64,000 nucleotides of DNA from Trypanosoma brucei (lineage: Eukaryota). Every line of letters begins with the position of its first letter. Within the stretch, counting starts at the first letter, position 1. The notes under the pieces are model-generated. The model was given only the letters and a program-made list of their open reading frames with translations, ran no database searches and was not told the origin of the DNA. Below are positions 641 to 57,908 of the stretch, piece by piece. A program made the translations under genes and the position numbers. The stretch is from positions 1,280,001 through 1,344,000 of the forward strand of contig CH464491.1 of assembly GCA_000002445.1 (NCBI GenBank). The letters run 5' to 3'.

Positions 641-714
641 AATGGCTCGTGCCCCTTTTCTGCGGAAGTCATAACCTGGTAGGTTTGAAGAAGGCAGAGA
701 CTCGTGTTGAGAAC

Positions 715-11069: not shown

Positions 11070-11464
11070 CTCTGATAAGCTGTACTCTCTGCGTATATGT
11101 AACGAACTGTTCACCTGTTTAAGGCGGAGAGTTGTTGTATTTGAACATAGTGTGCCTTCCATCCGTAAATTTGCTGTTGAAGCACCTTTGAAGTCGTGCA
11201 AGTCCGCGCGTTTGCCCTCGTTCAAGCGTGCTGAAACCAGCTGCAACGCCACGCGACTCCGTTGCTGGTCCAGATGTCAACTTCCTCATGTGTTATGTTG
11301 TAGCAATTCCCGGTGTGTTTAGCTGTGTGTATATATATACAAACTTCTCGTTTTTTTGTTTTTACCCTATTTATGTGTGAATGTATGTGTGGGTGCGCAA
11401 CTGTCCGCGGAGCTCGGCAAGCACCGCGAATAAAGTAGGAAAAACGAAAGGCAGTTTTGACGCA

Positions 11465-14919: not shown

Positions 14920-15819
14920 ATGTCGAATGCACTTGAGAGCATCACTGCGGCGACGCAGCTTCGGCGCGCGGTGATGGAGGCCCAGCGGGAGTTAGACGCC
15001 AAACGCGAGCTGTATTTGACCCGCATGGCCCGTGCGCATGAGATAGAGGAGACCATTGCGCAGGGCCGCGCGAAGCTGCAAGACAAACTTGTGCGATACT
15101 ACAAGTTTATTCAGGACAACGAGGTGAAACGTTCTCGTGCCATGCGTAAGGCAGTTACGGAGGAGCGCATTCGCAAGGAACGTGAGGCGCAGGTAGAGGA
15201 ACTTACTAAAAAGCTTCAGAATCTGCACGATCGCAGCGAAGAGCTTCGAGGGTTATACGATGTATATTCGAGGTACCAACGTTACCTTGAGGAGGTGCTG
15301 CAGCGCAATGATAGTGACGAATATCAGGGGCCGCGCGACATCATACAGCGGTGGAACACACTGCATGAAAACACAAAGGTGTTGCAGCGGCGTAAAACGC
15401 AGCTAGAGGAAGAGCTTCTGAGGAACAAGAATGCTCTAAACGTGAAACGACAGCGAAAGAACAATGAGAGTGTACAACTGCAGAACCAACTTAATGAGTT
15501 GCAGGCGAGATTTGGACAGCTCCAGAAGAATATTAAAATTAAACAGGACGAGCTTGAGCGGTGCATCAGTCAAAGAAGTACCACCTCACGTACCATTAGC
15601 CATGTGCGAATGGCTTGTAAGAACCTTTACGATCGCTGCATCACGTGGACAGCGCCGTACTCAGGCCGCGGTAAGTTTGAGTCCAGGGAGGCGGACGTGC
15701 TTTTTCAACTTCATGTTATTGGCGACTGCTTGCGTGACTTCCAGGACGTGATTGAGGCACACCATCAACGACAGCAGCAACTGGCCTTGGCACGCGCCTC
15801 CAGAGATGATGACGCGTGA
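14920..15819 (+). CDS. Coiled-coil protein of the DUF4200 family (CCDC42/CFAP73/MNS1-like; likely axonemal)
   Basis: ATG at 14920. Heptad-rich throughout. KFIQDNEVKRSRAMRKAVTEERIRKEREAQVEEL fits the DUF4200 N-terminal block (F..eN..KR.RA.kka..E). ISHVRMACKNLYDRC fits the C-terminal 'I.mAI.NLY.RC' block. Confidence 0.65.
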   Translation: MSNALESITAATQLRRAVMEAQRELDAKRELYLTRMARAHEIEETIAQGRAKLQDKLVRYYKFIQDNEVKRSRAMRKAVTEERIRKEREAQVEELTKKLQNLHDRSEELRGLYDVYSRYQRYLEEVLQRNDSDEYQGPRDIIQRWNTLHENTKVLQRRKTQLEEELLRNKNALNVKRQRKNNESVQLQNQLNELQARFGQLQKNIKIKQDELERCISQRSTTSRTISHVRMACKNLYDRCITWTAPYSGRGKFESREADVLFQLHVIGDCLRDFQDVIEAHHQRQQQLALARASRDDDA

Positions 15820-17344: not shown

Positions 17345-18353
17345 GGGTGTGTGTGTGTGTGTGTGGAGGGAAAAGACGTTTATTCGCCATTTCAGGGGGG
17401 GGGGCATTGATGCCTTCTCACAAAATCAAGGTTGGTGAATGCACACCTGATCAAAGGCCATCAACTTTTCCACTTTTGAAATAATACTATCTTATTGATG
17501 TTGTTACTCCTTTGTTTTGTTTTCATGATGTATTCTCTCTTGTGGAACATTTATGTTTATTTTCACTCCTCGTCACTACCATAACATCAGTGCAAACCCA
17601 CATGGACGCCGCATTTGCCCAACAGTGTGGCGAGGTCCGCTCTACAGTGCCTGTGGGATGTCAACTGTTTTACTTGTTAGTCATCGTTTCCGTGATTTGC
17701 TATATTATTCTGTCATTATCACTCTGCTCCTTTTTCTTGCCAACGACATGAAACTTCTATTTGTCCCCTTCACAATCCAGCTTGTCCCCTGACCCCGATA
17801 ATGAGAAGGGAGAGGTCATAAAGTTCATATCATTGCACATTGTCGCGCTCTCCCTTAATTATCCCTTATGGCCTCTTTCTTCTTTCCCCCGTGCTGTCGT
17901 GCTCTCAATCTCTCATTGCAACCGAACTTCGCTTCCTTCCGTTCATTCCTTACTTCTATCGGGGATTAAGCAATAAACCAGAAAACAAATATATTGCAAG
18001 ACTTGGTTGCTCTTATCGGCAGGGGCTGCTACTTTTTGGGATTGCAGCTGTCACAAGGTTCCTTCACCGGTTGTTGTTCATATTACTCCGTAGCATTGTC
18101 GAGAGCTTGTGCTTACGGTGTAGCTTAATTGACGGCCGCGCGCATTAGCAGTTGAAGTAAGAAATTTCTGCCCTTCCCCTTCCCTGCTCACCCCCTTTTT
18201 TTTCTTTCTTGACATTCCACTCACCTTTCCTCGGGTGCACACATTTAAGGAGGAACGTAGGGGAAAAGGTGTGAGCTAGAGTGGACAAACGTCCCCCCCT
18301 TTTTGGCGTGCATCAATCTATTACATAGTGAGCTGGATAACTTTCTCTTGTCC

Positions 18354-18965
18354 ATGTCTGTGAAGACGCTTGCCGCCCCAACAAAGAAGTACAAAATTGT
18401 CCTTTTGGGCGATAGCGGTGTTGGTAAATCATCCCTCGTACAGCGGCTCGCGAAGAATGAGTGGTGCGACAACCAAAACTCAACGGTAGGCGCGTCTTTC
18501 CTCCGGTACGTGTGTACTGTAGGGGATACAGCTGTAAACTTCGATATTTGGGACACTGCCGGTCAGGAACGCTACAAAAGTCTGGCATCCATGTATTACC
18601 GGGGCGCTGCTGCTGCACTTGTGGTGTATGAAATCCCGTCATGGGAAACATTTGAGCGGGCGAAACATTGGGTGCGGGAACTCGCAACTAACTCACCCGA
18701 GACAATTGTCATACTTGTGGGAAATAAAAGCGACCTAAGGGGGACTAGCGGTTGTGTGAGTAGTGAAGAGGCGGCAACATATGCCCGGGAACTCAATTTG
18801 CTGTTCAGTGAAGCGAGTGCAAAAGACGGTAGTGGTGTAAGTGAAGTATTCATGCAGATTGCGCAGCGGCTTGTAGCGTCGAATAATAATAACACTGTTC
18901 ATAGCGGTGGTGTGTTGGGAGGTCAGCCGAATTCCACTAGGCGAAGTTCCGGTTGCTGTGGTTGA
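18354..18965 (+). CDS. RAB5: Rab5-family small GTPase, 203 aa. The Rab5B paralogue is suggested by size and neighbourhood, but I cannot confirm it without a search
   Basis: G1 GDSGVGKSS, switch I STVGASF, G3 WDTAGQERY, Rab5-like YYRGAAAALVVYEI, G4 GNKSD, G5 SAK, C-terminal CC prenylation motif. The ORF-track start at 18303 is TTG; the first ATG is 18354 (MSVKTLAAPTKKYKIVLLGDSGVGKSS). Confidence 0.85.
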   Translation: MSVKTLAAPTKKYKIVLLGDSGVGKSSLVQRLAKNEWCDNQNSTVGASFLRYVCTVGDTAVNFDIWDTAGQERYKSLASMYYRGAAAALVVYEIPSWETFERAKHWVRELATNSPETIVILVGNKSDLRGTSGCVSSEEAATYARELNLLFSEASAKDGSGVSEVFMQIAQRLVASNNNNTVHSGGVLGGQPNSTRRSSGCCG

Positions 18966-21090
18966 AGCACTGCATGTTGTTGATTTCCGTTAGAGTGTTT
19001 TCGAACTCACTCACTCATGAGCGAGTTGAGTGGGTGTGTGAGTTCTTTTTTTTTTCTTTTCATCTGATTTGTTTTCTTTCATGGGAGAGGTGGTTTTCAA
19101 AGAGTGGAAGAAGAAGAAAGGATCGAGGAGGGTGAGGAAATTTCGTTAAGGGTTTTAGCTGTCCGCGTTTGGACCTTACTTTTTTGTTCTCACTCTCTTT
19201 CTTGTTTCACTTTGTTTTTTTCCTTCGTTTTACTGTTAGTTGGTGGTGTATTGTTTGTCGTGAACCTCACCTCTAAGACGCGCGGCATCCTTCTCTTTAC
19301 CTCTCACCACCGCTCGCGGGCTTATCTTTTTCTTGTTTTTTTTGTTTCGAGCCTTCTTGTTCCGCCATCATCATTATTATTGTTGTTATTATTCCCACTT
19401 CTTCCACTAGTGCTTTTACCACTTTCATTGGTTTTTTTTGCGGTGCCGCTAATGCGTTTGGTTCATTACCGTTTCATAACTCATGCCCACATAACACCAA
19501 TGAACTTTTGCCGTTTTGTTGTTGTAAAGAGAGGAAAACAGAAGAAGAAGAAAATGAAAACGTGATGAAGGCTGAAACAAAACAGTGAGAGGCGATGTAC
19601 CACCAGAGGTTGAGAAGGAACAGGAGGAATAGAAACGATAATGTGATGTTGAGGGTAACCGCCACAAGTAGTTATAACTTTTGAGAAGGTAAACATAAAG
19701 AGAAGGGAAGGGATAACAAGAGCTGATTTTCAAGAAAATAAATGCGCTTGTGTGCATGTGTATGTACTGGTGTCCCTCACTCCCTCTCCCTTTCTCTCTC
19801 TTTGTGGAGGTACTTAAGGAATTGGAGTTATAGATACAAATATGAGAGAAGAGGGAGGTAAAAAAAAAAAGAAAGAAACGGCTTTGAATTACCCACGATA
19901 CATGCATTCGTGTTCTGCCGAACTTCGCCTTCTCTTATGTGTTCAATTTCCCCTCGCTTCATTTCCATCCGTTTTGGTTCACTTTGCTTTTTTTTTTCTT
20001 TGTTATGTATAGGTACCGCCTTTAAGTGTTTTTGTGTTTGGGTGCACGGCCATCCTGTGCGATCTGCGAGTTGTTTCTGTTGCATCCGGAGGATGACCGC
20101 GCATTTCAGATTGTTATATTCATCTTTGCTTGTATCTCTCTCTCCCTCTCAAACACGTAAATACATGTATGCCTCCCCCTTTATTAAGATTGTTTTATTC
20201 GTTTCACTGTTACTCTTCCTGTCCGAATACGGTAACTTTAAACTTCTCTTTTTTTTTTCTCAAGAAAGTTCATTTTATGACGCGACAGTGAGACGGGTAC
20301 TCAAACTCTCACAGGTGTGTGCATTTAACATAGGGTTATTTTATATTGTTATGGCGTTTATGTGGTAATTTGTTACAAGTCAGCCGACAACCACTTAGTT
20401 TTAATTGCACGTGTTTGTGTGGGTCCCGGGTTTCAAAAAAGGAATTGCGAATTTTTGCTCCTCCAACATGTGGTTTCCACCAAATGTGTAGCGATACCCA
20501 CATGTTTCGGACGCCAGAGTACTCGGGGGTGTGGGAGTGGTTTCGACCAAAAAAGTGCGACGAGCGGGGGCCAAAGGACGTGCATGTCAGTATGTTTGAA
20601 CTGATGCAACTGATTTCATATTTTCTACCTCAGTGAATATCTTGACTTACGTATTTTCACTCACACTTCTGTCGCCCTCACCAATACATCGTTGCCTTGT
20701 CTTTCGATGATTGAAAGTGTTGGATGGGTTTACTGAAAGGGGCGGCTGATACTTGTCCTTGTGTTGATACTTTTGTGCGATTCAAGAATTCGACCATGTG
20801 GTAGATTCCGGAGGGCACCGCATGAATTTCCCACACCAGTACAAAAATCGGCATCGTTGATGTTTAAATTGTTTGTCTAACGGATTGGCGTTGCGCCTGC
20901 TCACCACCTCCCCTCCCACGTCTGCAAGTAACTCATTTGTGTTTCTGCTCCTGTCTATCCGTTGCTATTTCTCTCCCTTTTTTTTTTCTGTTTCGCTTGC
21001 CTTTGTTACCACCCACTTGGCTTTCCATCTTTCTTTGGATCCTCTTCAAAATGGTCGAACGAAAAGAAAGGAAGTGGGAACCCGCGACTG

Positions 21091-21924
21091 ATGCCATCAG
21101 TGTTGGTCTTCCTGCGGGATGCACTCGCTCACTACGAGTCGGGTGAGTTATGTACCGCCCGACAGGCGGCAGAAGAGGCTCTTCATGCCGCACAGCCGCA
21201 CGAACACGAAGCGTTCGCGGATTCATTGCTTCTTTTGGGGAACATTAGTGCTGCGGAGGGCGACTTCATTACGGCAGAGCGGTACGCTGCAACGTGTAGT
21301 TGCTACGTTGAGGAACATTTGGGCCCGCAACACAATGGAGCCGCAGTGGTGAGGCTTAACCGGGCTATATTTTTGTTAGAGAGCCTTCGTGTGCAATCCG
21401 TTACCACCGTGGCAGTTGTGGAGGAGGCGCATGCGCTTCTGCTGGAGGCGGAGCAGCTCCTTGTGAATGTTTGTCATGTGGGGCGACTGGTGTTAGCGGA
21501 GGTGCTTCATAACATCGGGGTGTGTTGCGCACTTCTTGGGCGTTATGTTGCAGCCTTAACGGCGTACATGCGGTCCATGCAAATACGCGTAAGGTTTAAG
21601 GATGCTGCGAGGGTTACGGATCTTAAACTCGCCTTGACAATGGAGCAGGTAGCACTGCTTTACCGTTTAATGGATGAGCCAAAGCGGCAGGAAGCCGCGC
21701 TGCTGATGGAAGTCGTAGCCTCAACCCGCAGGCAACTTCTCGGCCCACATCATCCACTTTTAGCCGCAGCCGTTCTTGCGCAGGGTGTCATTGCTGCTGA
21801 ACTCGGCCAGCGGTGTCGGGCGCAATCATTTCTTCGCAACGCCCTTGAAATGTTTTTGAGCCTTTACGGCAAGGAATCGTTCCAACTCCAATGCGCGGAG
21901 CGGCTGCTCGCTGAAGTATCGTGA
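21091..21924 (+). CDS. Hypothetical TPR-like helical repeat protein (277 aa)
   Basis: The ORF-track start at 20962 is TTG, inside a poly-pyrimidine tract; the first ATG is 21091 (MPSVLVFLRDALAHYESGEL). Repeated ~34-aa amphipathic helix pairs (LLLGNISAAEGDF..AERYA; LHNIGVCCALLGRYVAALTAYMRSM). Confidence 0.65.
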   Translation: MPSVLVFLRDALAHYESGELCTARQAAEEALHAAQPHEHEAFADSLLLLGNISAAEGDFITAERYAATCSCYVEEHLGPQHNGAAVVRLNRAIFLLESLRVQSVTTVAVVEEAHALLLEAEQLLVNVCHVGRLVLAEVLHNIGVCCALLGRYVAALTAYMRSMQIRVRFKDAARVTDLKLALTMEQVALLYRLMDEPKRQEAALLMEVVASTRRQLLGPHHPLLAAAVLAQGVIAAELGQRCRAQSFLRNALEMFLSLYGKESFQLQCAERLLAEVS

Positions 21925-22283: not shown

Positions 22284-22873
22284 TATGCTTGTGTTCAGTT
22301 CTTTACCTTCTCCCTTTTTTTTTCTCTTGTATTTTGTGCTCTTCCTTTTTTTTTTACACTTGCTCTGTATATCATTCAACGAGGTGGTAAAAACGAAAAC
22401 ACACAACAGAGAAAGAAAAGAAAGGAAAGGTGAAAACAATTTCAAGGGAAATCAAGTACAACACACCCTATTACCATCGTTATCATTATTGTTGCTTAAC
22501 ACCGCAAAAAAACAAGAAAAGTGAAAAAAAAAAGACTCTGGCACCTAGGCGGATTTGAAACACCAACAGGAAGATAAGGAAAAGTAAAACAAATACAAAG
22601 GTGGACTACATATTTTTGATTGTGCACGACCGAAAGGATACTGAATCAAACGCCTTTAGGGGAAAAGAAATATAGGGAGACTCAGTGATTTTTAATATAT
22701 ATATATATATATATATTCAAGGAAAAAGGCATAGGTTGAAAGGGGAAAGAAAAAGAAAAGGGTTGGGGACGAAAAAGTTTTTTAAAAAAAAACTAAGACA
22801 AAACAACGAAATAAAACCAGAAGGGTAGTTTTTCCTTTGTTTTCTTTTCTTTTTGTTTTTTTTTCTGGTTTCC

Positions 22874-24373
22874 ATGTCTGAAAAGGGAACATCGTTAAAC
22901 CTATTCCTCGCCGCCTGCCAAAAGGAGGGTGTGAAGCAACCCAACACATTTCTTGTCGAGTTCTTTACGAAAAAACCTGAACTGTCGGAAGTGGAGGAAA
23001 TAGACTTGAGCAAGAACTACATTGGGAACCGTGGTATTCTTGCCTTACTCGATGTAATTAGCGAGCTGCCATGCTTTCGCTTCCTCAACTGCTCAAACCA
23101 AAAACTGTATAACACGGACTTGAATGAGGATAGCGTTAGAGGTAACGCCACAATAGATCGCATCGTCGACGTTTTCAAATCACATCCAACAGCCAACGCA
23201 TTAGATCTCAGCCACAATCCTATTTCAAACTATGCTGGCCGTAGATTATTGTTGCTTACCCAAAATAACAAGCGCATCTGCCGTGTGGAATTGGTGGACA
23301 CTCGCATTGACTTTGAACTCCGCTCTCGCATTACGCAACAATGTGAAAAGAATACCATCGCTATTTGGGAGTCACAAGCACAAGAAAAGGAGGAGGAACG
23401 CGCCTTTGGTGAAAGTGTCACGTGGGTCCCAACACAAACGTCTGCGGACTTGACGGCAATCGGTGGCGGCCGGAAGCGACGTACTACAGTGCGAGGTGAG
23501 GGAATTGATCCTGAGAAGGCTAAATCATATGTTGCACCATATTTCGAGAAGAGTGAAGACGAAACGGCACTCATCTTGAAGTTGTTGACGTATAACGTAC
23601 TCTTCTCCTTTCTGGACTCACGCGATCTTATGACTGTGGCGGGTGCCATGTGGCGTGTGGAGTTCAAGCAGGATGATTGCATTATGGAGGCGGGGCAGAC
23701 AACATGTGACAAACTGTATATAATTCAAGATGGTAAAGCAGATATCATTAAAGAAGGACAGAAGGTATATCTCAAGGTAGAAGGTACGGCGGTAGGAGAG
23801 CTTGAACTTATGTATCAGACACCAACTGTTGCCACGGTGAAAGTTTGCACACCGGAGCTCATCGCATGGGCACTCGATCGCGACACGTATCGTCACCTCG
23901 TGATGGGTAGTGCCATCCGCCGCCGTGAGACATATATTCAATTCCTAACAAATATTCCGTTCCTCAGTGGCCTTGACAATTATGAGAAGCTGCAACTTGC
24001 GGATGCCCTCAGCAGCGACGAGTTTGAACCGGGTGATTACATCATTCGCTACGGAGAGGAGGGCGAATGGCTGTACATCATTTTGGAAGGTTCTGTTGAT
24101 GTGGTTGGGCGGGATGACGATGGAAATGAAAAGCATGTTTGGGAATTCGGGAAGGGGGATCATGTGGGTGAGCTGGAATTCCTTAACAATCACGCCAATG
24201 TAGCAGATGTTGTGGCAAAAACGCATGTTGTCACGGCGAAGCTTAACCGTAGGCACTTTGAAATGTGCCTTGGACCTGTCATTGATGTACTGAAACGAAC
24301 CTCGCAGCAGCCAAACTATGAGTACTACCAGTCGAAACTGAAAACTACTTTAAGGGCAGAGGGGAGGAAGTAG
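22874..24373 (+). CDS. PKAR: cAMP-dependent protein kinase regulatory subunit (PKA-R), kinetoplastid type: N-terminal leucine-rich repeats plus two cyclic-nucleotide-binding domains
   Basis: The ORF-track start is TTG; the ATG at 22874 gives 499 aa (MSEKGTSLNLF...). LRR-like N-terminus (IDLSKNYIGNRGILALL...LDLSHNPISNYAG). Inhibitor-like RRTTV site. Two CNB domains with phosphate-binding cassettes GELELMYQTPTVATV and GELEFLNNHANVADV; both lack the canonical Arg of 'PRAAT'. Confidence 0.9.
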   Translation: MSEKGTSLNLFLAACQKEGVKQPNTFLVEFFTKKPELSEVEEIDLSKNYIGNRGILALLDVISELPCFRFLNCSNQKLYNTDLNEDSVRGNATIDRIVDVFKSHPTANALDLSHNPISNYAGRRLLLLTQNNKRICRVELVDTRIDFELRSRITQQCEKNTIAIWESQAQEKEEERAFGESVTWVPTQTSADLTAIGGGRKRRTTVRGEGIDPEKAKSYVAPYFEKSEDETALILKLLTYNVLFSFLDSRDLMTVAGAMWRVEFKQDDCIMEAGQTTCDKLYIIQDGKADIIKEGQKVYLKVEGTAVGELELMYQTPTVATVKVCTPELIAWALDRDTYRHLVMGSAIRRRETYIQFLTNIPFLSGLDNYEKLQLADALSSDEFEPGDYIIRYGEEGEWLYIILEGSVDVVGRDDDGNEKHVWEFGKGDHVGELEFLNNHANVADVVAKTHVVTAKLNRRHFEMCLGPVIDVLKRTSQQPNYEYYQSKLKTTLRAEGRK

Positions 24374-25940
24374 GTGGCTCGTAAAATATGCATTGGATTG
24401 CTTTTCGTGTTTTTTTTGTTTGTTTTCTTGTTTTTGTTTTCTTTTGGGGAGTATTCGATTGGATTTTTTTTTGGGAGGTGGAGGCTACTGTAGAGAGGAA
24501 GAGTCGTGTAAACAAGAGGAGGAAGCAGGAAGAAATAATAATAATAATAATAGAAGAAGGGAAGGAGAGTGGCTGCAACGGAAGGTAAAGTAAAAAAAAA
24601 AAAGAAGAGAGGGAGGAGAAGAGAGGAGAACAAACAACTTATCCCGTCATTTCTTCTTCTTCTTTTTTGATCTTGCGTTATTGTATGTATATGTATTCCT
24701 GACTTCTGTTGCTTCCTTCATCAATGCAGAAGTTGTCAGTTTCGCAAAGAATGAAGGAAGTAAAAAAAGAAAAGAAAAAAGTTTATTATTATTATTAAAG
24801 AAAAAAAAAGGAGAGATGAATAAAATAGAGGAAGGGAGTATGAATCCCATTTACTGGAGGAGAAAACAAAACGAAGGGGATTAAATGAGATGATGAAATT
24901 GAAAAGTGAGAGTGAGAGTATGAGTGAATGAACTGTTGCGAAGACGTGAGACAACTGGAAGGCGAGAAAGTTGTGTGGGATAATGTTAGAAAAAATAAGG
25001 AAACATATATAGAAAAAAGAAAAGAGAAGAGAAGAGGCAAGGGGTCATGGAGTAATAAAACGAGGGAAAATAGTAATGATAATAATAATAATAATAATAA
25101 AAACAAGATGGGAACATGAAAAACGGTGAAGGCAAATATGAGACTTGTAACTGTACCGAATATGACACCTATTGTTGTTATTATTACTATTGTTGTTATT
25201 TATTTATTTTTTTAAAAAAAAAGGGGGGAAAAAGAAAAAAAAATGAGGGAATAACATTTTGGATTTGCACCAGATCCAGTTTATATGGAAGAACCCCTGC
25301 TGATGGTGGCAAGGCGTATTGTGGACTTGACGCGGCAATTTTTTTTTTTTTACGCGCAACTGCTTCGGTAGAGTAGGACAAAAAGAAAAATTACGCAAAC
25401 AAAATATTTTGGTGATTTCTCTTTTTCCCCTTTTTGGTGTTTATATTTATGTTAAAAGTGTACAGTTATGTGTCTGTAAATTGTGGTATACCGTCACTTC
25501 AGCATTTCCTTCTTGTATAACACACCAACAAAGAAAAAAAAGAAAGGGAAAAAGATTTTTTTTCTAATTTATTCTATTTATATTTTGTTGTTGTTGGTGT
25601 TATTGCGTTAGTAACGGCAGCAATGTGTGGTATTTGAAGGTTTATGTTTCATTTCTGTATGATGATAACATGTGTAACTTTCATTCATTTAATGTTAGGT
25701 CTGCCATGTCGTCTCATTATTATTATTATTATTATCATCATCATCATGTTTTAAAGTTCTCTCGTCCCTCTCGTACTCAACTTTTCGTTTTTGTTTCTTT
25801 GTTATTTTGCCGAGAATAAAGAAAAAATATGTATGTATATATTTATTTATTTAAAAGCAACACCGACCGAACCTATCCTTCCCACAGCTACGCATAAGCA
25901 AAATTCGCAAACAGCACGAACTTTATTTATTTATTTATTT

Positions 25941-25970
25941 GTGTGTGTTTGTGTGTGTGTGTGTGTGTGT
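25941..25970. repeat. (GT)n microsatellite
   Basis: gtgtgtgtttgtgtgtgtgtgtgtgtgtgt. Confidence 0.9.
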
Positions 25971-26372
25971 TTTTTCTCCTCCCTCTTCTTTGTTTATGCC
26001 ATCTGATGTTGTAGTTGTTTTCTTTTCTTTTTTCCTTTTTTTTTTTTGTCAGCATGTGAAGGGAAAAGTTTCATCTCGTGTGTTTCCTTTCATTTGTTTT
26101 TTTTTCTCTCTTGCTTTTGTTCTTCGCTTCCTTCGCCCCATAATTCCGTTTGTTGACTCCTTTCGGCTCCTTCGCTTTTTGTTTTGTTTTATGTTTTATG
26201 TCTTTATATTTATTTGTTTAATGTTTCAATTGCCCTTGTGTTTGTATTTGTGTTTGTGTTTGTGCTCGGGAGGTTCTGTTTTTTTTTTTCCTTTTTGTTG
26301 TTTTTTTTTTTTCCCTCCCCCTTCCCCGCCGTTTGATGTTGTTTTTTCTTCACTCTTGATTTTATTCCTTTC

Positions 26373-26408
26373 CTCTCTCTCTCTCTCTCTCTCTCTCTGT
26401 CTGTCTCT
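26373..26408. repeat. (CT)n then (CTGT)n
   Basis: ctctctctctctctctctctctctctgtctgtctc. Confidence 0.9.
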
Positions 26409-26501
26409 TCACTTGAGCAATTTTTCTTACCTTACCGTTGGATGGACACTTCCTTTTTTTTCTTAAAAAATTACTGTTTGATTTCATTTAATTCTGCACG
26501 C

Positions 26502-26527
26502 GAGGAGGAGGAGGAGGAGGAGGAGGG
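26502..26527. repeat. (GAG)8 trinucleotide repeat
   Basis: gaggaggaggaggaggaggaggagg. Confidence 0.9.
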
Positions 26528-28187
26528 AAGGTGTGTTTTGTTTTATTTGAAAGAAAAAGAGAGGAGAAGAAAAAGAAATTAATTTATTTATTAATTAATT
26601 TATTTATTTACGTATGTGTGCGTTTTGTGTGAAATGGACGTCAAGAGGAGTAATATCCCAAAGCACTTTTCCTCTTCTTTTTTTTTTGTTCCCTCTCTCC
26701 CTCTCTCTCTCTTCTTTGTTTGTTTTTTTGTTTTGTTTGTTTTTTTACTTACTTAAAAAATGAAAATAATGTTTTGAATGAAAAATATCAATATTTTTAT
26801 TCGGGCGTGTCATGCATTGCTAAAACAAAAATAAATACGCCAATAGAGAAGAGGAGGAAGAAAGAAAATGGAATGGAATGGGTTGTGAAAGTCATGTAAT
26901 ATGAAGAAAGAAAAGAAAGAAAAAATAAATAAAAAAATAAAAAAGTGACAAAGGCCGAATATAAATAGAATTAAAAACAATACTGCCACCACCCACCCCA
27001 AAAAAAAAATATATATATATATAAGAAAGAGAAGTACGAGATGCGGATATTAACAAAAAGAAATTAAAGAGATGGGAAAGAGAGAAGGGGGGAAAAAAAA
27101 AAGACAGAGAACAACATGTAAAAATTTTAATTTTGGCGGGGGCGGGGGAAGGGGGGAGGGAAATGCAAAACTGTAATTTCTATTTTAAGAAATAAAATAA
27201 AATAAAATAAGAGAGAGAAAGAGAGAGATGGAAGTGTATTTATATGTGTACGTACCGGTATTAGGAGGAAAGGTGAAGAGCTGTGCGTTATAATGTATGA
27301 ATTTGTTGTTTGAGTGAAGGAATGAAAAAAAAAAAAGATAAATATATAAATAAATTACACATATGATTATAATTATAACAGAATAATAATCAAACAAAAC
27401 AATAATAACACAAAAAAAATAGGAGGAAGAGGAAGTAAAGGAAGGCGGAGGAATGTACAAAAAAAAAGCAGAGAGAAGAAGATAAGATTAAGTTATGCTA
27501 AGTTAAGTTAAGAGGCACATTTTAGAGGAGGAGGAGGAGGATGAGGAAGAAGAAGAAGAAAAACAAGAAACTAAATTGAAAAAAATGTGAGGGAGTAAAG
27601 ACATTGCAGGGGGAGGTGGGAGAAAAAATATATATATATATATATAAGAAAAGGGGGTGAAACAATTTTTTCTTTTAACCATATGAATATGAATATTTAT
27701 TTATATTTATATTTATATTTATATTCATATTTATATTTATATTGTGTATTTGTATTAGTGGTGCCCGGGGGTATCTCGCGGTTGGCGCTTTAAAATCTTG
27801 CATTTTGTTGTCGTGTTGTCTTCTTTTTTTTTTTTCTTTTTTCCTCCTCCCCCCCCTTGCGGTCGCATTATCTGTTCAAATTTTTTTTCATGTGTCTTTT
27901 TGTCGTGTTTGTTTGTTTGTTTGTTTTTTTCTTTACTTCGCTTTATCTTACCTTATCTTATCTTATCTTTTTCTCGTCATGTTTTTTTTTTACTTTGATT
28001 CTCTTCCGTTAATTTTTTTATACTTTTTATTTTCTTCATACTAATATTTGCTGCATGGTACTTCCAATGTCGTTACGCGTTTGATCCACTTTTTTTTTCT
28101 CCCCCCCCCCATCATTCCCCCCTTCTTTTTTTTTTTCATTCTTCTCATTTTCTACACGCACACACGCCTCTTCACTTTTTCTGGTGC

Positions 28188-28211
28188 ATATATATATATA
28201 TATATATATAT
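28188..28211. repeat. (AT)12 microsatellite
   Basis: atatatatatatatatatatatat. Confidence 0.9.
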
Positions 28212-29716
28212 TGTTATTTATTTATATACAAACACAATAAAAAAGCAAACGATGAAAGAATAAGACCGCAGAAGAGATAAACATTTTGTTGTTCAAGGAA
28301 GAAGGGGGTGACAGAAAAAAAAAAAGAAGGAAGCAAGAAGGAAGGAATGAATACAGTTTGTGTCTCTACGTGAAGCGATTATTTCATTTTGTTTTTTTTT
28401 TTAAATTATATTGTTATAACAATAATATAAAAAAAACTTATATCTTGTACCTCTATATTTACACGGACTGTGCACCGAAGTGTGTGGAAAGGAAAGCCCG
28501 CATGCTTAAGGAAGGAGAGGGGTTGTGTGTAGTGACTTTGTGAAGCCCTTTGAGGGAGTTTATTTCACGCCTTATTTTGTGTGTTGCGCTTCTCTGCTTT
28601 AAAAAAAAAAAAAAAAAAGTGGCCTCCCATCTTTTTTTTATTTATTTGTTGTTGTTGTTGTTGTTTTGGTTTTGCCTTCTCTCTCCTTGTTCTCCTTTCT
28701 CAAACAATAATTATTTTTTTTTGCTTTTGTTCTCTCTCCATTCACGTTGCAAATATATTGAAGAAAAGGGGGAATGGGGATGCACAAGTTGTTTTACTGG
28801 ATATCATTATTACAAATTTAAAGTGAAAAAACAAAGATGTCGAAAAAAAAAAAGGGGGACGGAAAAATATTATTATAATAACAATAATACTAATAATAAT
28901 AAATAGTGTACAGAAGTAATAAATAAGCAATCAAAAGGCAAGTTGTTTAAGTGATGCATTTGCTGAGGTGCATTGGCATCTGACTGACGTTTTGAACTTG
29001 TGGAGGATACGCATGCACATGTACACGTGTATGTGTGTGTAAATATATGTATATATGTTTATCAGCGCGTTCTTGTGCTTCCATTCCAAAAGAAAATAAA
29101 AAGGAGGAGGGGTTGCGGGACATCATATAACAATGTTACTGAAAAAAAAATGGAAGGGAAAAGAATATATGAGTGGATGAAAGGGTTATTATTAACAAAC
29201 CCCTGTTGCATTTACTCAGTAGGATACAAACACGTTCATCTGTAGCTGATGTCTGCTGGAAAGGTTTCGGGTGACAGGTCTCGGTGTCGGTATTGGTGCC
29301 ATTGTTTATTTTGTTTTATTGGAATCACGACACGACTGACTCACCACGGAAGTAGGCGTGCGGCGCAGAAATTATTACAGTCCCCCTTCTGACCGTTGGA
29401 TGCTATGAACGCACTCTATTTTACTCTCTCTCTTTCCCTCTTTCTCTCTTTTTCACGTCATCCCCTTTGGTATCGTTATCACTATTATTTATTTTATATT
29501 ATATGCAACTTCTACATTTTTTTTTTCATACCCTTTTTTTCATCTTTCACCCGCACTCAACTGTGATTTCTGTGGAACAACCACAATAACAACAAAATGA
29601 AGGAAACTTCGCATCTCTAAAGGGCAAAGCGGAGTATTTTGAAGAGTGTCAACCAATAAGTAAGTGCAGGCTTCCGTCGTGTCGGAAGCCTTATCTTTTA
29701 CTTATTGCTTGACTCG

Positions 29717-29739
29717 ATATATATATATATATATATATA
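29717..29739. repeat. (AT)n microsatellite ~35 bp upstream of the 29775 ATG
   Basis: atatatatatatatatatatata. Confidence 0.9.
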
Positions 29740-29774
29740 CATATACATATTCCTCAGCGCCGTAAGCACTTGTT

Positions 29775-31097
29775 ATGCAACGGCACCAGTTATATGTTGA
29801 TGGCCTTTCGGGGTTATTGTCACCCGCTGGAATCCGTACGTACCGGCAGGCGGGTCTTGTTGTAGCGCGTGGCCTCCTTCCTGAGAAACTCGTGGAGGCT
29901 CTCACCTCAACTTGTAGCAGCATCGCATTGACTAGAGGTAAATGTGTCTTTCCAGGTATTGACGAGGCTCACAGTGGAAAGGTTGAGTTTGATGGGCGCA
30001 CCGTTCCACAACCAACGGCTAATTTAGGTGCCCAAGAGCCTCCTCCAGAAATTCAGAAGCAGCTTCGTCAGCAGGACGAGGCGCGGTCGATCGAGCGGCG
30101 GTATGAAAAGGTGCTGCTCAAATGTCGGAACCAACGGCAAGTGGAACGGGTATACGCCCGACTGGCCGCACAACGCGAGCGCTACATGAAGTTCAAACAA
30201 GTAAGGAATGTTGTTTCACCTGAGGAGGAGCTCTCCGGACGGACGAGCAACCGACGCATGCGTGAGATCGGCGAGAGTTACGAGTATGAGGATTTGAAGA
30301 GCAGTTTCGAAACGTATCGTGACAGTGGGAAGATGGAGATGGAAGTGCGACGTGACTACCACGTTGACCGGGCGATGGAGCACCTACAGAACTGGTCAAA
30401 ATGTTGGTGCCGTGTGTGGCCGGAATCAAAGGAATTGCAGGAACTTTTGTTGCGTGGCGAACTCGGTTCCATTGTCGGGCAGGCCGCTGCTGCGCTGGCT
30501 GGCGAAATTGTGATCCGTCTATTTGACGACGCGATTCACGACTACCAGAGATTTCTGAATAGCACGCCATTTCACTTCACGGGAAACTCTACCAACTTTC
30601 GCAACGTGAATGGCATGACAGTGTCAGTTGGCCTAACAGCACACGACGACGTTCGCACTTTTGTCATTCCTGGTTCCCATCACGTGATGCGAGAGTTCAC
30701 CAATGATGGTAATGATTTTAGCCGTTTTTGTGCTACCGGTGTGTTTGACACAGGCCGTGCAATTCGAGGTATCGAACCACTGAGTGAGCTTCCAGTGTTT
30801 CAACTACAACCGTTGGAACCAGGTAGCGTACTTTTTATGAACCACTACACCATTAGCGGAGCGCAGCCGACAATGTGCGGCCCCGCAGCGGATTACGTTC
30901 CACCCGCGGCGGCTCCAGTGAACGGTGTTTACCAATATTCCCTCATTCTTATGCCCGGTCGTTGTTTGTTTGATGGGCTGAGAAATTCGTGGGCGTCGCG
31001 TGACAGCCACGGTCCATTGTACAACTATAAAGCGGGACAGCCGCTAATTGATGATGCCGTGTTTCCCGTACTTCACAGAGCGCTGGATGTGGAGTAA
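29775..31097 (+). CDS. Hypothetical protein (440 aa); weak resemblance to PhyH-like 2OG-Fe(II) dioxygenases
   Basis: ATG at 29775 (checked). The 'TAHDDVRTFVIPGSHHV' segment resembles the PhyH 'W.alDD...G.l.viPGSH' region. I could not verify a complete HxD...H triad, so the function is low-confidence. Confidence 0.7.
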   Translation: MQRHQLYVDGLSGLLSPAGIRTYRQAGLVVARGLLPEKLVEALTSTCSSIALTRGKCVFPGIDEAHSGKVEFDGRTVPQPTANLGAQEPPPEIQKQLRQQDEARSIERRYEKVLLKCRNQRQVERVYARLAAQRERYMKFKQVRNVVSPEEELSGRTSNRRMREIGESYEYEDLKSSFETYRDSGKMEMEVRRDYHVDRAMEHLQNWSKCWCRVWPESKELQELLLRGELGSIVGQAAAALAGEIVIRLFDDAIHDYQRFLNSTPFHFTGNSTNFRNVNGMTVSVGLTAHDDVRTFVIPGSHHVMREFTNDGNDFSRFCATGVFDTGRAIRGIEPLSELPVFQLQPLEPGSVLFMNHYTISGAQPTMCGPAADYVPPAAAPVNGVYQYSLILMPGRCLFDGLRNSWASRDSHGPLYNYKAGQPLIDDAVFPVLHRALDVE

Positions 31098-31481
31098 TGT
31101 GCGTCTGTTAGGGTGAAGTGTACCGCCACTGCCCACGGGAGTGTGTCTTGTGGGTAAGGTAGGGGTTGAGTAATGTTCACAGAATAATATATATATATAT
31201 ATATAGAAGTGTTTATCCATGTGCAATCAATTGAGTAGCATTTTCTCTATCTACTCTGCACGTAACTTGAACCGCGTTGTTTAACTTGTCTGCCTCCCTA
31301 TCCCTCCACATTCCGTATTCAATTCATAAAATATGTAGCGGGTGGGCAAGGTGTCGGAAGCCCACCAGGGAGATAAAACAAAAAGAAAAACGCACTCCGT
31401 CTTTTTTTTAAAAAAAAAAAAGGAAACACACACACATAACACCGGGGTTCGGAAAAGTTGTGTGCCGGTTGCGGCCCTTAT

Positions 31482-34400
31482 ATGAATACGATCGATGCTG
31501 CTCTTGTAAGCATTCAGAATGGGCTAGCGCAGGAGAAAAAAGGTCAACTTTCCGAAGCACATGAGTTACTTATTAATGGCGTGAGGGGACTCCGCAAAGC
31601 TGTTAAGGAGTTGACACTCGATAGTTCACGGCGATTACTACTTATCGAATATGACAAAGATGCGATGAGGCACATTCAGCGAATTTCTGAGGTTTTAAAG
31701 GGGTCAAAAAAACACGTGGCTGACACCCTTCTCCCAGCACCGTCTTCAACTCACTCGTATGTGTCGTCCCGTCCGCAAACCTCGGAACACCGCTCCGGTG
31801 AGGATGACGACTACCTAAGTTTTCTCAACACTGATGTGGGAAGTCCCGTGCATACAAGTTTATTTGCCCAACCTCCCTTCCACCAAGTCTACAAGGCGCC
31901 GGCAAAACCAACTGGAACCACTGGTCTGTCGGCGTCACCGCCACGAGTTCATCGCTCCGGAGAGGAGCCCGGGAGTCCTGCCGCGCAATCCCCAACGCAG
32001 GGTACTTCCGATATTGTTCTCAAAGCCATCGATGTTGCAACAGCGTTGCTGCAAAGGAGAGAGTTAAAACGAGCAGTAGACGTGTTGCAGCACGCCTACG
32101 ACGTGGGTGTTCGGACCCGTATCAGACCTGGAAACTTTGAACGCGTGGAGGAACATCTGGTTCTCTTGAGGAGAGAATACTACAAGCACTTCAAACCCCG
32201 CTTTCTTCAGGACAATCCCGTACTGCCGGAAGAGATGGATGTTTTGCGAAAGTCCGGAATCACCACGACAATTGCACTCCCGATTTGGGATGACTTGAAA
32301 GAAGGATATGGGAGAGAGAACGTATTTATGCCGTGTGAGGGTCACTGGAATGACACCTTCACACCAGAACTTTCCTCTGTGCAGAAGTCCGCTGGTGCCA
32401 GGTATGTGTGTATCGGTGAAGCAAGGCGAGGTGTGGAGTTCTGCATCATACGCGCGGCGGATCCGTTGAACATCAAGCAGACAGTGGTGGGGGATTGCTC
32501 CATGGTCTGCAGTCTTATCATATGCGCCCTATATCAGCAGCGGTTCCCCAAGGCGAAGATAATTAGCAACGTCATCTTCCCACAGGATTCGGATGGTGTT
32601 CCGGTAGTGAACCCGAAGGGGAAGTATTGCGTCAAGATGCTTGTGAATGGTATCACTCGACTCATTACTGTGGACGACCGGTTCCCAGCAAACCCGCAAA
32701 CGGGAGAAATGCTTTGCACGTATAGTCGCGACAAATCAGAGCTGTGGGTGTCAATTATGGAGAAAGCGTTCGTAAAAGTTTGCGGCGGAAGTTATGATTT
32801 TCCTGGCAGTAGCAGCAGTAGCGACCTCTACAAGCTCTCTGGTTGGCTTCCAGATAGTGTTGACTTCACTGTAAAGGACTTTGATAGGAATTTGCAGTGG
32901 TCAAGATTCTTCAACCGGTATGCAGATGGTTCTCTTCTCATTACGGTGAGTACACCCCCACTCTCCGAAGCTGAGGAAAGGAGACTTTTGCTCGCATCAG
33001 AACATGCGTACGCCGTTTTGGATATGAGAGAGATGTCAGGCGTGCGACTCGTACAATTAATGAACCCATGGAGCCGCCGTGCGTGGAGTGGTAAATTTTC
33101 CCTCAACGACAAGAGACCGGAAGTTGTCAAGGTTCTCACGCAGCTACAGTACGGCTCACCACAGGCTGATCAAGGCATTTTCTGGATTACGTGGGATGAT
33201 CTTTGCACAAACTTTTCCCGGTGCTCGTTGAGCTGGAACCCGTATATGTTGTTCAAAACGCCGGATGGTATGTCGCAGCGGCCCACGCGACTTTCCTGTC
33301 ACAGTCGTTTTCCCTACACAACAAGCATGGGTCAGTCCCCACAGTTCCATATTGGCGTAATCGACGCACCGAAGCCTTCCCGCATGCATCTTGTGTTTTC
33401 ACGTCACATGACGGATCCGACGGCGTTTGGTCAACAGTTTGATAGGGACCACCCGAATGTACCGTACGTTTCTCTCAAGGTATATGATGTCACTCGGTTC
33501 CCTTCCATCGCACAGCATCTGGGAGCTCGTTGTAGTTTTGGCATGTGTTACTGTCGCCGGCTCGCCCACGGAACAGAGTTGGGCGTAAAAATAGCCCCCT
33601 TGAGCAATCCCACATACCGAAACATGGCTGCGTATACACTGAGCTTCAACTGCCCAGCTGGTACAAGTGATCTTCTAGTTGTTGTTAGTCGGTTGGAATC
33701 TGCTATCAAGTCAGAGTTCAGCTTTTCCCTCACACTTCACACAGAATGGCCTCAAGTACTGCTGCAGGAGTCGGCTCAGCGCTGCTGGGGTGTGTATATA
33801 CATGCCATTCCCCGCAGTAGTCTCAGGCATTGCACTGTGACGCACGGCAAATGGGTAAAAGGCGTGAGTTGCGGGGGTAGGAGCTTTCTGCAAACCTTTG
33901 TGTACAATCCCCAGTACCTACTAACACTTGCACGTGCATCGATGGTATCCGTACGTTTATGTGTATCAGATCAAAATAATGACGATAGTGACAAAAGTGT
34001 TCAGGTGCACCTCCTGCAAAAAAGGCAGGACCCAGGAGTGGGGCAGGTCAAGTGGGCTGCACGGGTGGGTTCTACCAATGAATGTAGCTTGCACCTGTGT
34101 GCACCGTTGTTTGCTCATGGTGGTGTTGTCGTAGATACAAGCCTTCGAAGCTGTTTTGCGCCAGAGTCCGTGCACTACCCTGTTCCACAATCGCATCAAC
34201 TACAATCTGAACAACAGCTACAGCAAAGCCAATGGACGAAGAAGGCCCTATCAACGTCGGATGGACCACTACCTCCCCTTCCTGCCGGTGACTATACAAT
34301 TGTAGTTGCACAGTGGGAGAAGGGTATACCCGCAGCGTTTGAACTTACCGTTGAAACGACGGAGCCACATCAACTACGGGAAATTGTGCCAGAGGGTGTT

Positions 34401-34820: not shown

Positions 34821-35295
34821 GTTAAGACATTGGGGGGGGAATTGTGTTTTTTCGTATTTGTCGGTACGTAACGCGAATGTGTCTGAAGTCAAGCTTCCCG
34901 CACTATGGTGGCCGCACCGTTGTGCCGTGGGTTGTTCTCACTTTTCCTGCGTTTTATTTTATTTCTTTAATAACGGCGCCAGTACGCTACGAATGCTGCG
35001 CGCGTGTGTGTCTGTATCTGTGAAGGGTCGGAGGTTGCAACGTGTTACTTCAGAAGTGTGCGCTGCCAATTTGTACAGTAAAAGTGATGGTGTTGAAGAG
35101 GTGTAGCGGTGCGCTAAAAGGTGGTTGAAGAAAATTGGCTGAGTAGCAGTGCGCACACGTTTTTGAATATGATCTGCCCACATGTTAACGACTCGCTGAC
35201 CTCACTTACTGTTTTCGCTCCTCCCTTATTTCTTCAACTATTTTAAACTTCATGAAGCCACTTGGGCCCACCCGTCTGAGTGCTTGCCGCTGTGC

Positions 35296-57870: not shown

Positions 57871-57908
57871 CACCTTCATTTGTTGCTAACCCTTCAAAGA
57901 GCAGTTGG

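What the first reader, a model, noticed from the sequence alone, without database searches (positions are those of the whole stretch)
22874..24373. PKA regulatory subunit with LRR N-terminus and arginine-less phosphate-binding cassettes in both cNMP pockets
In both cyclic-nucleotide-binding domains the conserved Arg of the PBC (G-E-L-A-L-x-x-x-x-P-R-A-A-T) is replaced: site A is ...QTPTVATV and site B is ...NNHANVADV. Kinetoplastid PKA is reported to be unresponsive to cAMP and instead to bind nucleoside-type ligands. The sequence here displays exactly the substitutions that would abolish cyclic-phosphate coordination. The N-terminal leucine-rich-repeat region replaces the dimerisation/docking domain of metazoan R subunits.
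Basis: partly seen in the sequence, partly recalled or inferred. Interest (0 to 1): 0.5.

Follow-up and report, generated by a model that had tools for sequence, protein, structure and literature searches.

The report
Trypanosome nucleoside-regulated PKA regulatory subunit

Summary
Window 22874..24373 (+) is an intact 499-aa ORF. Residues 199-499 are 100% identical to PDB 6FLO, which is T. brucei PKAR(199-499) bound to inosine. The whole protein is 100% identical to the annotated T. brucei gambiense PKAR; the gene is Tb927.11.4610.

Aligned to mammalian RI-alpha:
- R209 corresponds to T318 and R333 to N442.
- A202 and A326 correspond to E311 and E435.
- A210 and A334 correspond to V319 and V443.

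Among 78 euglenozoan-type homologues, none has Arg at position 442, and E435 and V443 are invariant. All 15 canonical R subunits have Arg at both sites.

Published biochemistry (Bachmaier 2019; Ober 2024) shows that cAMP does not activate this kinase. [quoted passage not shown] The glutamates, more than the loss of arginine, set ligand specificity. A C-terminal alpha-D helix forms a lid over site B.

The N-terminus has no DD domain. Its Pfam LRR_6 match is sub-threshold, but an AlphaFold model (pLDDT 85.5) gives an alpha/beta LRR fold that matches tropomodulin, RNase-inhibitor and axonemal LRR proteins.

Verdict: real, correctly interpreted and already known. Interest is low.

The parts
22874..24373 (+). 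Complete CDS of the PKA regulatory subunit (TbPKAR/PKAR1, Tb927.11.4610). It encodes 499 aa and the range includes the stop codon.
   Evidence: ORF and translation are. It is 100% identical over 100% coverage to T. brucei gambiense PKAR (P0001). Residues 199-499 are 100% identical to PDB 6FLO.
22874..23386 (+). N-terminal leucine-rich-repeat domain, about aa 1-171. It has capping helices, four beta-strand/helix repeats and a long closing helix. It occupies the place of the DD domain.
   Evidence: The AlphaFold2 model has pLDDT 85.5, with strands at 42-44, 70-72, 109-111 and 137-139 alternating with helices. Foldseek hits to tropomodulin, RNase-inhibitor, NLRP and axonemal LRR proteins have E as low as 4.6e-07. 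Pfam LRR_6 is sub-threshold here but reaches E = 3.7e-07 in orthologues. No RIIa/DD hit was found.
23387..23467 (+). Flexible linker, about aa 172-198, between the LRR domain and the inhibitor site.
   Evidence: pLDDT falls to 63, 56 and 51 over residues 171-199 of the model. The orthologue consensus is poorly conserved here.
23477..23491 (+). Inhibitor (substrate-type) site RRTTV, aa 202-206. It docks into the active-site cleft of the catalytic subunit.
   Evidence: It aligns with the RI-alpha inhibitor sequence RRRRGAIS. It is conserved as R-R-x-T-V in most orthologues. PMC6440977 describes it as the PKA substrate motif that inhibits PKAC.
23579..23938 (+). CNB-A domain. The boundaries (aa 236-355) are approximate.
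   Evidence: Pfam cNMP_binding reports two stretches. The region aligns with RI-alpha CNB-A.
23795..23839 (+). Site A cassette GELELMYQTPTVATV, aa 308-322, called 'ribose-binding cassette A' in the literature. E311 is at nt 23804-23806. T318, in place of RI-alpha R209, is at 23825-23827. V319 is at 23828-23830.
   Evidence: Supported, PDB 6FLO and the engineered mutant 6H4G (E311A/T318R/V319A), and PMC10959531.
23939..24310 (+). CNB-B domain. The boundaries (aa 356-479) are approximate.
   Evidence: The best Pfam cNMP_binding stretch is aa 383-465. The region aligns with RI-alpha CNB-B.
24167..24211 (+). Site B cassette GELEFLNNHANVADV, aa 432-446, called 'ribose-binding cassette B'. E435 is at nt 24176-24178. 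N442, in place of RI-alpha R333, is at 24197-24199. V443 is at 24200-24202.
   Evidence: Supported. E435 and V443 are invariant in 78 of 78 euglenozoan-type homologues, and none has Arg at column 442. See also PMC10959531.
24311..24349 (+). C-terminal alpha-D helix (lid), PNYEYYQSKLKTT, aa 480-492. Y482 caps the purine in site B. Y484, Y485 and K488 contact the ligand and V443.
   Evidence: The sequence is. The Y-x-Y-Y motif is conserved in 71-78 of 78 homologues and absent from canonical R subunits. Its function was shown in PMC10959531.

Best explanation
The gene encodes the regulatory subunit of Trypanosoma brucei protein kinase A.

Its RRTTV inhibitor site and two tandem CNB domains hold one catalytic subunit (PKAC1, 2 or 3) inactive in an R-C heterodimer.

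The two pockets are not cyclic-nucleotide sites. The cassette Ala is replaced by Glu (E311, E435). These Glu residues hydrogen-bond the ribose 3'/5' OH groups and would clash with a cyclic phosphate. The phosphate-neutralising Arg is replaced by small neutral residues (T318, N442), and the following Ala by Val. A lineage-specific C-terminal alpha-D helix (Y482, Y484, Y485, K488) closes over site B.

Purine nucleosides occupy the pockets at nanomolar affinity. Guanosine prefers site B, adenosine prefers site A, and inosine binds both. Binding triggers the usual CNB conformational change and releases active kinase.

The N-terminal domain is a short RNase-inhibitor/tropomodulin-type LRR instead of the DD domain. 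This explains why there is no R2C2 tetramer and no AKAP-type docking. It probably serves for targeting to the flagellum.

What is shown here: identity, the substitutions, their conservation and the LRR fold prediction. What is shown in the literature: ligand identity, cAMP insensitivity, the mutational conversion and the heterodimer. What is inferred: the LRR acts as a localisation or docking module.
For: - Identity: aa 199-499 are 100% identical to 6FLO, and 6H4G differs only by E311A/T318R/V319A. The full length is 100% identical to T. b. gambiense PKAR.
- Substitutions: the alignment to RI-alpha and the codons.
- Conservation: E435 78/78, V443 78/78, E311 71/78, and no Arg at column 442 in 0/78. 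All 15 canonical sequences have Ala at the E311 column and Arg at both Arg columns.
- Function from papers: cAMP does not activate; 7-deaza-nucleosides have EC50 >= 6.5 nM; the complex is an R-C heterodimer; the RRTTV site and LRR N-terminus are described (PMC6440977). Natural nucleosides are nanomolar ligands; two to three substitutions convert the pockets to cyclic-nucleotide specificity; the alpha-D helix is a lid; guanosine is the predominant in vivo ligand in bloodstream forms (PMC10959531).
- LRR: model with pLDDT 85.5, Foldseek hits and Pfam LRR families in orthologues.
- Localisation: N-terminal tagging of Leishmania PKAR1 disturbs its flagellar localisation (bioRxiv 10.1101/2023.11.08.566240).
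Against: Nothing found here contradicts it.

Three caveats apply:
- The LRR is not supported at Pfam's curated threshold for this sequence (15.6-18 bits against a cut-off of 23.4). It rests on a predicted structure.
- The function of the LRR domain has not been demonstrated.
- Ober et al. themselves leave open whether nucleosides act as true second messengers or as nutrient or metabolic cues. The incompatibility with cyclic nucleotides is not absolute, because the Arg-restored mutant responds at high concentration.
Confidence: 0.96

Rival explanations
1. It is a canonical cyclic-nucleotide (cAMP or cGMP) dependent R subunit whose pockets coordinate the cyclic phosphate through other residues.
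For: Overall similarity to RI-alpha is strong (E = 1.4e-53) and includes the invariant cassette Gly-Glu (G308/E309 and G432/E433). An RI-alpha R333 mutant keeps its cAMP response, with only a 5-fold shift. From my own recollection, not retrieved here, older work reported activation of T. brucei PKA by high concentrations of cGMP.
Against: cAMP does not activate TbPKA in vitro or in vivo (PMC6440977). The crystal structures predict that E311 and E435 clash with the cyclic phosphate. Cyclic-nucleotide binding appears only after engineered E-to-A, T/N-to-R and V-to-A changes (PMC10959531; PDB 6H4G).
Confidence: 0.01
2. It is a ligand-less pseudo-receptor. On this view the degenerate pockets are vestigial, and the subunit is only a constitutive inhibitor or scaffold released by other means such as phosphorylation or temperature.
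For: Loss of the key Arg in both pockets is what a decaying site would look like. Site A is visibly degenerate in some distant homologues (P0068-P0075).
Against: The substituted positions are under strong purifying selection: E435 and V443 are 78/78, A444 is 77/78 and D445 is 76/78. A decaying site would not show this. Inosine is seen in both pockets of 6FLO, and nucleosides activate the holoenzyme at nanomolar concentration.
Confidence: 0.01
3. The mechanism is the same, but the physiological ligand is a still unidentified nucleoside-derived signalling molecule rather than free guanosine, adenosine or inosine.
For: The 2019 paper proposed 'nucleoside-related endogenous activators'. The 2024 paper discusses whether nucleosides are second messengers as an open question (section 19 heading). 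A hydrophobic sub-pocket accommodates C7 substituents.
Against: Pull-down of PKAR after rapid lysis found guanosine as the predominant bound ligand in bloodstream forms, and guanosine plus adenosine in procyclic forms (abstract of PMC10959531).
Confidence: 0.1

Closest known systems
Trypanosoma brucei PKAR / PKAR1 (Tb927.11.4610; PDB 6FLO, mutant 6H4G)
   Same: It is this protein. The full length is 100% identical to the T. b. gambiense entry, and aa 199-499 are 100% identical to the crystallised T. brucei construct.
   Different: Nothing differs.
Trypanosoma cruzi PKAR1 (PDB 6FTF, 6HYI, 6HYQ) and Leishmania PKAR1
   Same: They share the same architecture: LRR, RRxTV inhibitor site, two CNB domains and the alpha-D helix. 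They also share the cassette Glu and Val residues and the Y-x-Y-Y tail. Identity is 76% to the T. cruzi marinkellei orthologue (P0004) and 63-66% to Leishmania.
   Different: The residue that replaces the cassette Arg varies. Position 318 is T in T. brucei, V in T. cruzi and A in Leishmania. Position 442 is N in T. brucei and T in most others. The literature calls these positions non-conserved and functionally tolerant.
Mammalian PKA RI-alpha (for example PDB 1RGS, 4MX3, 2QCS)
   Same: The inhibitor site followed by tandem CNB-A and CNB-B is shared (E = 1.4e-53). The cassette Gly-Glu, the overall fold and the allosteric release of the catalytic subunit are also shared.
   Different: RI-alpha has a DD domain, forms R2C2 and docks to AKAPs. 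Its cassettes are GELAL...PRAAT with R209 and R333, and it binds cAMP. It has no alpha-D lid. The trypanosome protein has an LRR N-terminus, forms an R-C heterodimer, carries Glu/Thr/Val and Glu/Asn/Val in the cassettes, and binds nucleosides.
RNase-inhibitor / tropomodulin-type LRR domains (for example 1IO0, 4PEQ, and axonemal LRR subunits in 7SQC, 9E5C, 9Y6S)
   Same: The predicted alpha/beta solenoid of aa 1-171 superposes on these with Foldseek E from 4.6e-07 to about 1e-03 and TM (normalised to the query) of 0.45-0.59. LxLSxNxI motifs are present at aa 43-50 and 108-117.
   Different: Sequence identity is only 10-22%. There are only about four repeats. No binding partner is known. The Pfam LRR_6 score is below the curated cut-off.

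Membership tests
PKA regulatory subunit (PKAR) | Two tandem cyclic-nucleotide-binding (CNB, PF00027) domains in the C-terminal half. | tested here: met
   Pfam cNMP_binding matches with E = 7.6e-31 in 2 stretches. The region aligns end to end with RI-alpha CNB-A and CNB-B.
PKA regulatory subunit (PKAR) | An inhibitor (pseudo)substrate site, RRxS/T or RRxA/G, just N-terminal of CNB-A. | tested here: met
   RRTTV at aa 202-206 aligns with RI-alpha RRRRGAIS.
PKA regulatory subunit (PKAR) | Binds and inhibits PKA catalytic subunits; a ligand releases them. | not testable with these tools
   Shown experimentally for this protein in PMC6440977 (pull-downs with PKAC1/2/3) and in PMC10959531 (holoenzyme kinase assays).
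Canonical cAMP-dependent PKAR (RI/RII type) | The consensus F-G-E-[LIV]-A-L-x(4)-[PV]-R-[ANQV]-A, with Arg contacting the cyclic phosphate, in both CNB domains. | tested here: not met
   Site A reads GELELMYQTPTVA and site B reads GELEFLNNHANVA. Both have Glu for Ala and Thr or Asn for Arg.
Canonical cAMP-dependent PKAR (RI/RII type) | An N-terminal dimerisation/docking domain (PF02197, RIIa). | tested here: not met
   No PF02197 hit at E <= 0.1. Canonical hits P0079, P0084 and P0087 do carry PF02197.
Kinetoplastid nucleoside-regulated PKAR1 | Glu replaces the cassette Ala in both sites (E311 and E435). | tested here: met
   Codons GAA at 23804-23806 and 24176-24178. Conserved in 71/78 and 78/78 homologues.
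Kinetoplastid nucleoside-regulated PKAR1 | The cassette Arg is replaced by a small neutral residue, and the next residue is Val. | tested here: met
   T318/V319 and N442/V443.
Kinetoplastid nucleoside-regulated PKAR1 | A C-terminal alpha-D helix with the aromatic Y-x-Y-Y motif that lids site B. | tested here: met
   Y482-E-Y484-Y485 is present and conserved in 71-78 of 78 homologues. This stretch is identical in the 6FLO chain.
Kinetoplastid nucleoside-regulated PKAR1 | Nanomolar binding of purine nucleosides and no activation by cAMP. | not testable with these tools
   Published for this exact sequence (PMC6440977, PMC10959531).
Leucine-rich-repeat domain (RNase-inhibitor-like, LRR_6) | A sequence match to an LRR profile at the curated threshold. 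| tested here: inconclusive
   LRR_6 scores 15.6-18 bits against a cut-off of 23.4. Of the 49 aligned sequences scanned, 10 reach LRR_6 at E <= 0.01, with a best E of 3.7e-07.
Leucine-rich-repeat domain (RNase-inhibitor-like, LRR_6) | An alpha/beta solenoid of repeated beta-strand-loop-helix units. | tested here: met
   The AF2 model (pLDDT 85.5) has four strand/helix repeats. Foldseek gives 20 PDB hits at E <= 1e-3. Those I recognise (tropomodulin, leiomodin; just above that cut-off also RNase inhibitor and NLRP/NOD2) are LRR domains; the axonemal-complex chains I take to be LRR subunits without having checked each. This is a prediction, not an experimental structure.

The most novel reading that the evidence does not exclude
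Two modest points are not excluded.

(a) The nucleoside-type pockets may not be a trypanosomatid or parasite invention. The features concerned are E311/E435, no Arg at position 442, V443 and the Y-x-Y-Y lid. They also occur in free-living diplonemids (Diplonema papillatum P0060, and transcriptome sequences P0061-P0063) and in bodonid-like metagenome sequences. Site B is far more conserved than site A. On this reading the switch from cAMP to nucleoside ligands predates the kinetoplastid-diplonemid split.

(b) The N-terminal LRR may be an axoneme-docking module that functionally replaces DD-AKAP anchoring. Its best structural neighbours are LRR subunits of axonemal complexes.
Probability: 0.45. 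Interest if true: 0.3.

Novelty: already known. Interest (0 to 1): 0.08.

Why it matters
Trypanosomatid PKA is the first documented case of a CNB domain repurposed from cyclic nucleotides to nucleosides. It is also a potential parasite-selective drug and tool target. All of this has been published for exactly this protein, including structures, mutagenesis and in vivo ligands. Re-finding it in a genome scan adds no new biology. Its value here is as a positive control: reading the cassette residues (Ala-to-Glu, then Arg-to-neutral) from raw sequence does flag a real ligand switch.

Tried and rejected
- I tried to see the cassettes of the Euglena gracilis R subunit (PDB 6RSX) by querying the PDB with the distant homologue P0059. 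The top hits were again 6FTF, 6H4G and 6FLO, so the 6RSX alignment was never displayed. The state of euglenid PKA therefore remains unchecked.
- A literature search for diplonemid PKA found nothing. A search on Euglena PKA and nucleosides gave only a passing remark that Euglenozoa lack a cAMP-dependent PKA.
- I looked for hidden features in the 5.4-kb gene-free stretch 3' of the gene. There are no tRNAs and no Rfam family. ORFs there are only low-complexity ones. Repeats are only simple-sequence, low-complexity ones. I rejected it as anything beyond a long UTR or intergenic region.
A crystal structure of the identical sequence exists (6FLO) and supersedes any model.
- The upstream TTG at 22853 from the mechanical ORF list was rejected as the start codon. 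ATG 22874 gives exactly the 499-aa database protein.
Full report
**1. The observation**

The + strand between 22874 (ATG) and 24373 (end of the stop codon) is an uninterrupted ORF of 499 codons. The mechanical ORF list extends it to a TTG at 22853. The ATG start gives a protein that is 100% identical over 100% of its length to a 499-aa database entry named 'protein kinase A regulatory subunit, putative [Trypanosoma brucei gambiense DAL972]' (P0001).

Pfam finds two cNMP_binding stretches (E = 7.6e-31). Apart from these, there is only a sub-threshold LRR_6 match at aa 41-58, and no RIIa/DD domain.

- GELELMYQTPTVATV, aa 308-322, nt 23795-23839.
- GELEFLNNHANVADV, aa 432-446, nt 24167-24211.
- Neither contains an arginine.

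**2.

The phmmer alignment with mammalian RI-alpha (chains 4mx3_A and 6no7_B, E = 1.4e-53) is gap-free through both cassettes:

| RI-alpha | This protein |
|---|---|
| GELALIYGTPRAATV | GELELMYQTPTVATV |
| GEIALLMNRPRAATV | GELEFLNNHANVADV |

- RI-alpha R209 and R333 therefore correspond to T318 and N442.
- A202 and A326 correspond to E311 and E435.
- A210 and A334 correspond to V319 and V443.

I aligned the 92 homologues together with the RI-alpha fragment.
- All 15 canonical sequences (fungal, metazoan and other R subunits, a PKG, and RI-alpha) have Ala at the 311 column and Arg at both Arg columns.
- Among the 78 euglenozoan-type sequences, E435 and V443 are invariant (78/78) and E311 is present in 71/78.
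- In that group, Arg occurs at column 442 in 0/78 and at column 318 in 3/78.
- The residue that replaces Arg is variable. Column 318 is C, A, V, T and others; column 442 is T, C, N or A.

The pattern is therefore a lineage-wide, selected state. It is neither chance nor decay.

**3. Identity**

Residues 199-499 are 100% identical to PDB 6FLO chain A. The next hit, 6H4G, differs only at E311A, T318R and V319A. Next comes the T. cruzi orthologue (6FTF, 6HYI, 6HYQ).

Ober et al. 2024 (PMC10959531) identify these entries as follows:
- 6FLO is T. brucei PKAR(199-499) bound to inosine.
- 6FTF and 6HYI are T. cruzi PKAR(200-503) bound to 7-CN-7-C-inosine and inosine respectively.
- The triple mutant is the engineered cAMP-binding 'mutant 6'.

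Both papers give the gene as Tb927.11.4610.

The genomic setting fits a trypanosome polycistronic unit. Every long non-overlapping ORF of the window is on the + strand. The window also carries a Trypanosoma-specific GARP-family gene.

**4. How it works**

Shown in the literature for this very sequence:

- *Holoenzyme.* TbPKAR pulls down PKAC1, 2 and 3 as R-C heterodimers, with no sign of R2C2. cAMP does not activate the kinase. 7-deaza-nucleosides activate at EC50 >= 6.5 nM (PMC6440977).
[quoted passage not shown] Guanosine prefers site B and adenosine prefers site A, so together they act synergistically. Guanosine is the main ligand recovered from bloodstream forms (PMC10959531).
- *Structural basis.* E311 and E435 hydrogen-bond the ribose 3'/5' OH groups. 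They occupy the space of the RI-alpha arginines and would clash with a cyclic phosphate.
- *Mutagenesis.*
  - E311A/E435A lowers inosine potency 1556-fold.
  - Restoring Arg alone (mutant 4) gives only a weak cIMP response (EC50 24 uM) and leaves the inosine response unchanged.
  - Glu-to-Ala plus Arg gives upper-nanomolar activation by cyclic nucleotides.
  - V319/V443 contribute about 17-fold.
  - The RI-alpha R333 mutant still responds to cAMP, with only a 5-fold shift.
[quoted passage not shown] I confirmed that it is present (PNYEYYQSK) and conserved.

The decisive change is Ala to Glu. Loss of Arg is permissive rather than sufficient.

**5. The N-terminus**

For this sequence the sequence profiles alone are inconclusive. 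LRR_6 scores 15.6-18 bits against a cut-off of 23.4.

Among the 49 aligned sequences scanned (the window's N-terminal fragment plus 48 homologues), the numbers reaching Pfam LRR families at E <= 0.01 are:
- LRR_6: 10, best E = 3.7e-07.
- LRR_NXF1-5: 5.
- LRR_4: 4.

I predicted aa 1-199 with that alignment.
- Mean pLDDT is 85.5 and pTM is 0.77.
- N-terminal helices are followed by four strand/helix units: E42-44/H52-62, E70-72/H90-103, E109-111/H119-131 and E137-139/H147-171.
- A low-confidence linker follows (pLDDT 63 falling to 51 over 171-199).

Foldseek against the PDB returns 20 hits at E <= 1e-3. Those I recognise are LRR domains:
- tropomodulin and leiomodin C-terminal LRRs;
- RNase inhibitor and NLRP/NOD2 LRRs, which sit just above that cut-off (E about 1.4e-03 to 1e-02).
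- The top-ranked hits are chains of axonemal complexes: the Chlamydomonas C1 central pair (7sqc_5A, E = 4.6e-07) and the T. brucei and L. tarentolae 96-nm doublet repeats (9e5c, 9y6s). I take these to be LRR subunits but did not check each chain.

So 'an LRR region in place of the DD domain' is supported. It agrees with the domain cartoons in PMC6440977 and with the Leishmania preprint. That preprint also reports axonemal PKAR1 and mislocalisation on N-terminal tagging.

That the LRR is a docking module is an inference. TbPKAR itself is not among the modelled chains of 9E5C or 9Y6S, because no chain from those entries appeared among the top sequence matches.

**6. Comparison and novelty**

The protein works like a PKA R subunit: inhibitor site, tandem CNB domains and ligand-induced release. 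It is a member of that family.

It fails two defining features of the canonical cAMP-dependent subfamily, namely the cassette Arg/Ala consensus and the DD domain. It meets every testable feature of the kinetoplastid nucleoside-regulated PKAR1 group, and it is in fact that group's type example.

Everything in the finding is already published, so the novelty class is 'already known' and interest is low.

**7. Side observations**

- The nucleoside-type cassettes and the Y-x-Y-Y tail extend to Diplonema papillatum. P0060 has GELELMYDTPCVATV and GELEFLNNHTCVADV with tail PKYEYYKKQ, but a long N-terminus of about 530 aa that contains TPR repeats. They also extend to several diplonemid or bodonid-like transcriptome and metagenome sequences.
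- Site B is much better conserved than site A.
- I found no paper in the library on diplonemid PKA.
- A 5.4-kb AT-rich, simple-sequence, gene-free stretch follows the stop codon. It has no tRNA or Rfam hit.

Noticed in passing
window 24374-29774: This is a 5.4-kb stretch directly 3' of the PKAR stop codon. Its only ORFs are low-complexity ones. GC is 0.30-0.35, against about 0.50 in the neighbouring genes, with strong local purine/pyrimidine strand asymmetry. It is full of simple repeats (TG, CT, AT and TATTTA arrays). It is the longest gene-free gap of the window. It is probably a very long 3' UTR or intergenic region. No tRNA or Rfam match was found.
   Followed up: partly
window 1-64000: All long non-overlapping ORFs lie on the + strand, forming one polycistronic unit. 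Pfam identifies these neighbours: Nipped-B/SCC2-like (649-6084), GNAT acetyltransferase (11381-12184), Aladin-like WD40 (12636-13997), DUF4200 coiled-coil (14920-15819), Ras/Rab GTPase (18303-18965), TPR protein (20962-21924), calpain-like protease (31458-34820), kinesin (40399-42471), SURF1 (45455-46495), family-A DNA polymerase with 3'-5' exonuclease (48141-52361) and aldo-keto reductase (52644-53474). Several ORFs have no Pfam hit: 29775-31097, 35284-39864, 53878-55215, 55505-56053, 56245-57354, 57642-59453 and 60278-61591.
   Followed up: partly
window 62241-63059: This 272-aa ORF matches Pfam GARP (glutamic acid/alanine-rich protein of Trypanosoma, E = 1.6e-56). It is a GARP/BARP-family surface-coat-type gene and sits in a lower-GC segment at the end of the window.
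   Followed up: no
P0060, P0061-P0063, P0070 (homologues); alignment columns of aa 308-322, 432-446 and 480-488: Nucleoside-type cassettes (Glu for Ala, no Arg in site B, V443, Y-x-Y-Y tail) are also present in diplonemids (Diplonema papillatum and others), not only in trypanosomatids. Site B is nearly invariant (E435 and V443 in 78/78), whereas site A degenerates in distant members. The Diplonema P0060 orthologue has a 530-aa N-terminus containing TPR repeats instead of the short LRR. No paper on this was found in the library.
   Followed up: partly
window 22874-23386 (aa 1-171); model m65962a750ae8: The best structural neighbours of the predicted LRR domain are chains of axonemal complexes (Chlamydomonas C1 central pair; T. 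brucei and L. tarentolae 96-nm doublet repeats), which I take to be LRR subunits. They rank ahead of tropomodulin and RNase-inhibitor LRRs. This is suggestive given the reported flagellar/axonemal localisation of PKAR1, but it may simply reflect how common LRR folds are in those large entries.
   Followed up: no
window 22829-22873: A 45-nt polypyrimidine tract ends immediately at the ATG, with no AG dinucleotide between the tract and the start codon. The trans-splice acceptor used for this mRNA is therefore not obvious from the sequence and may lie further upstream.
   Followed up: no
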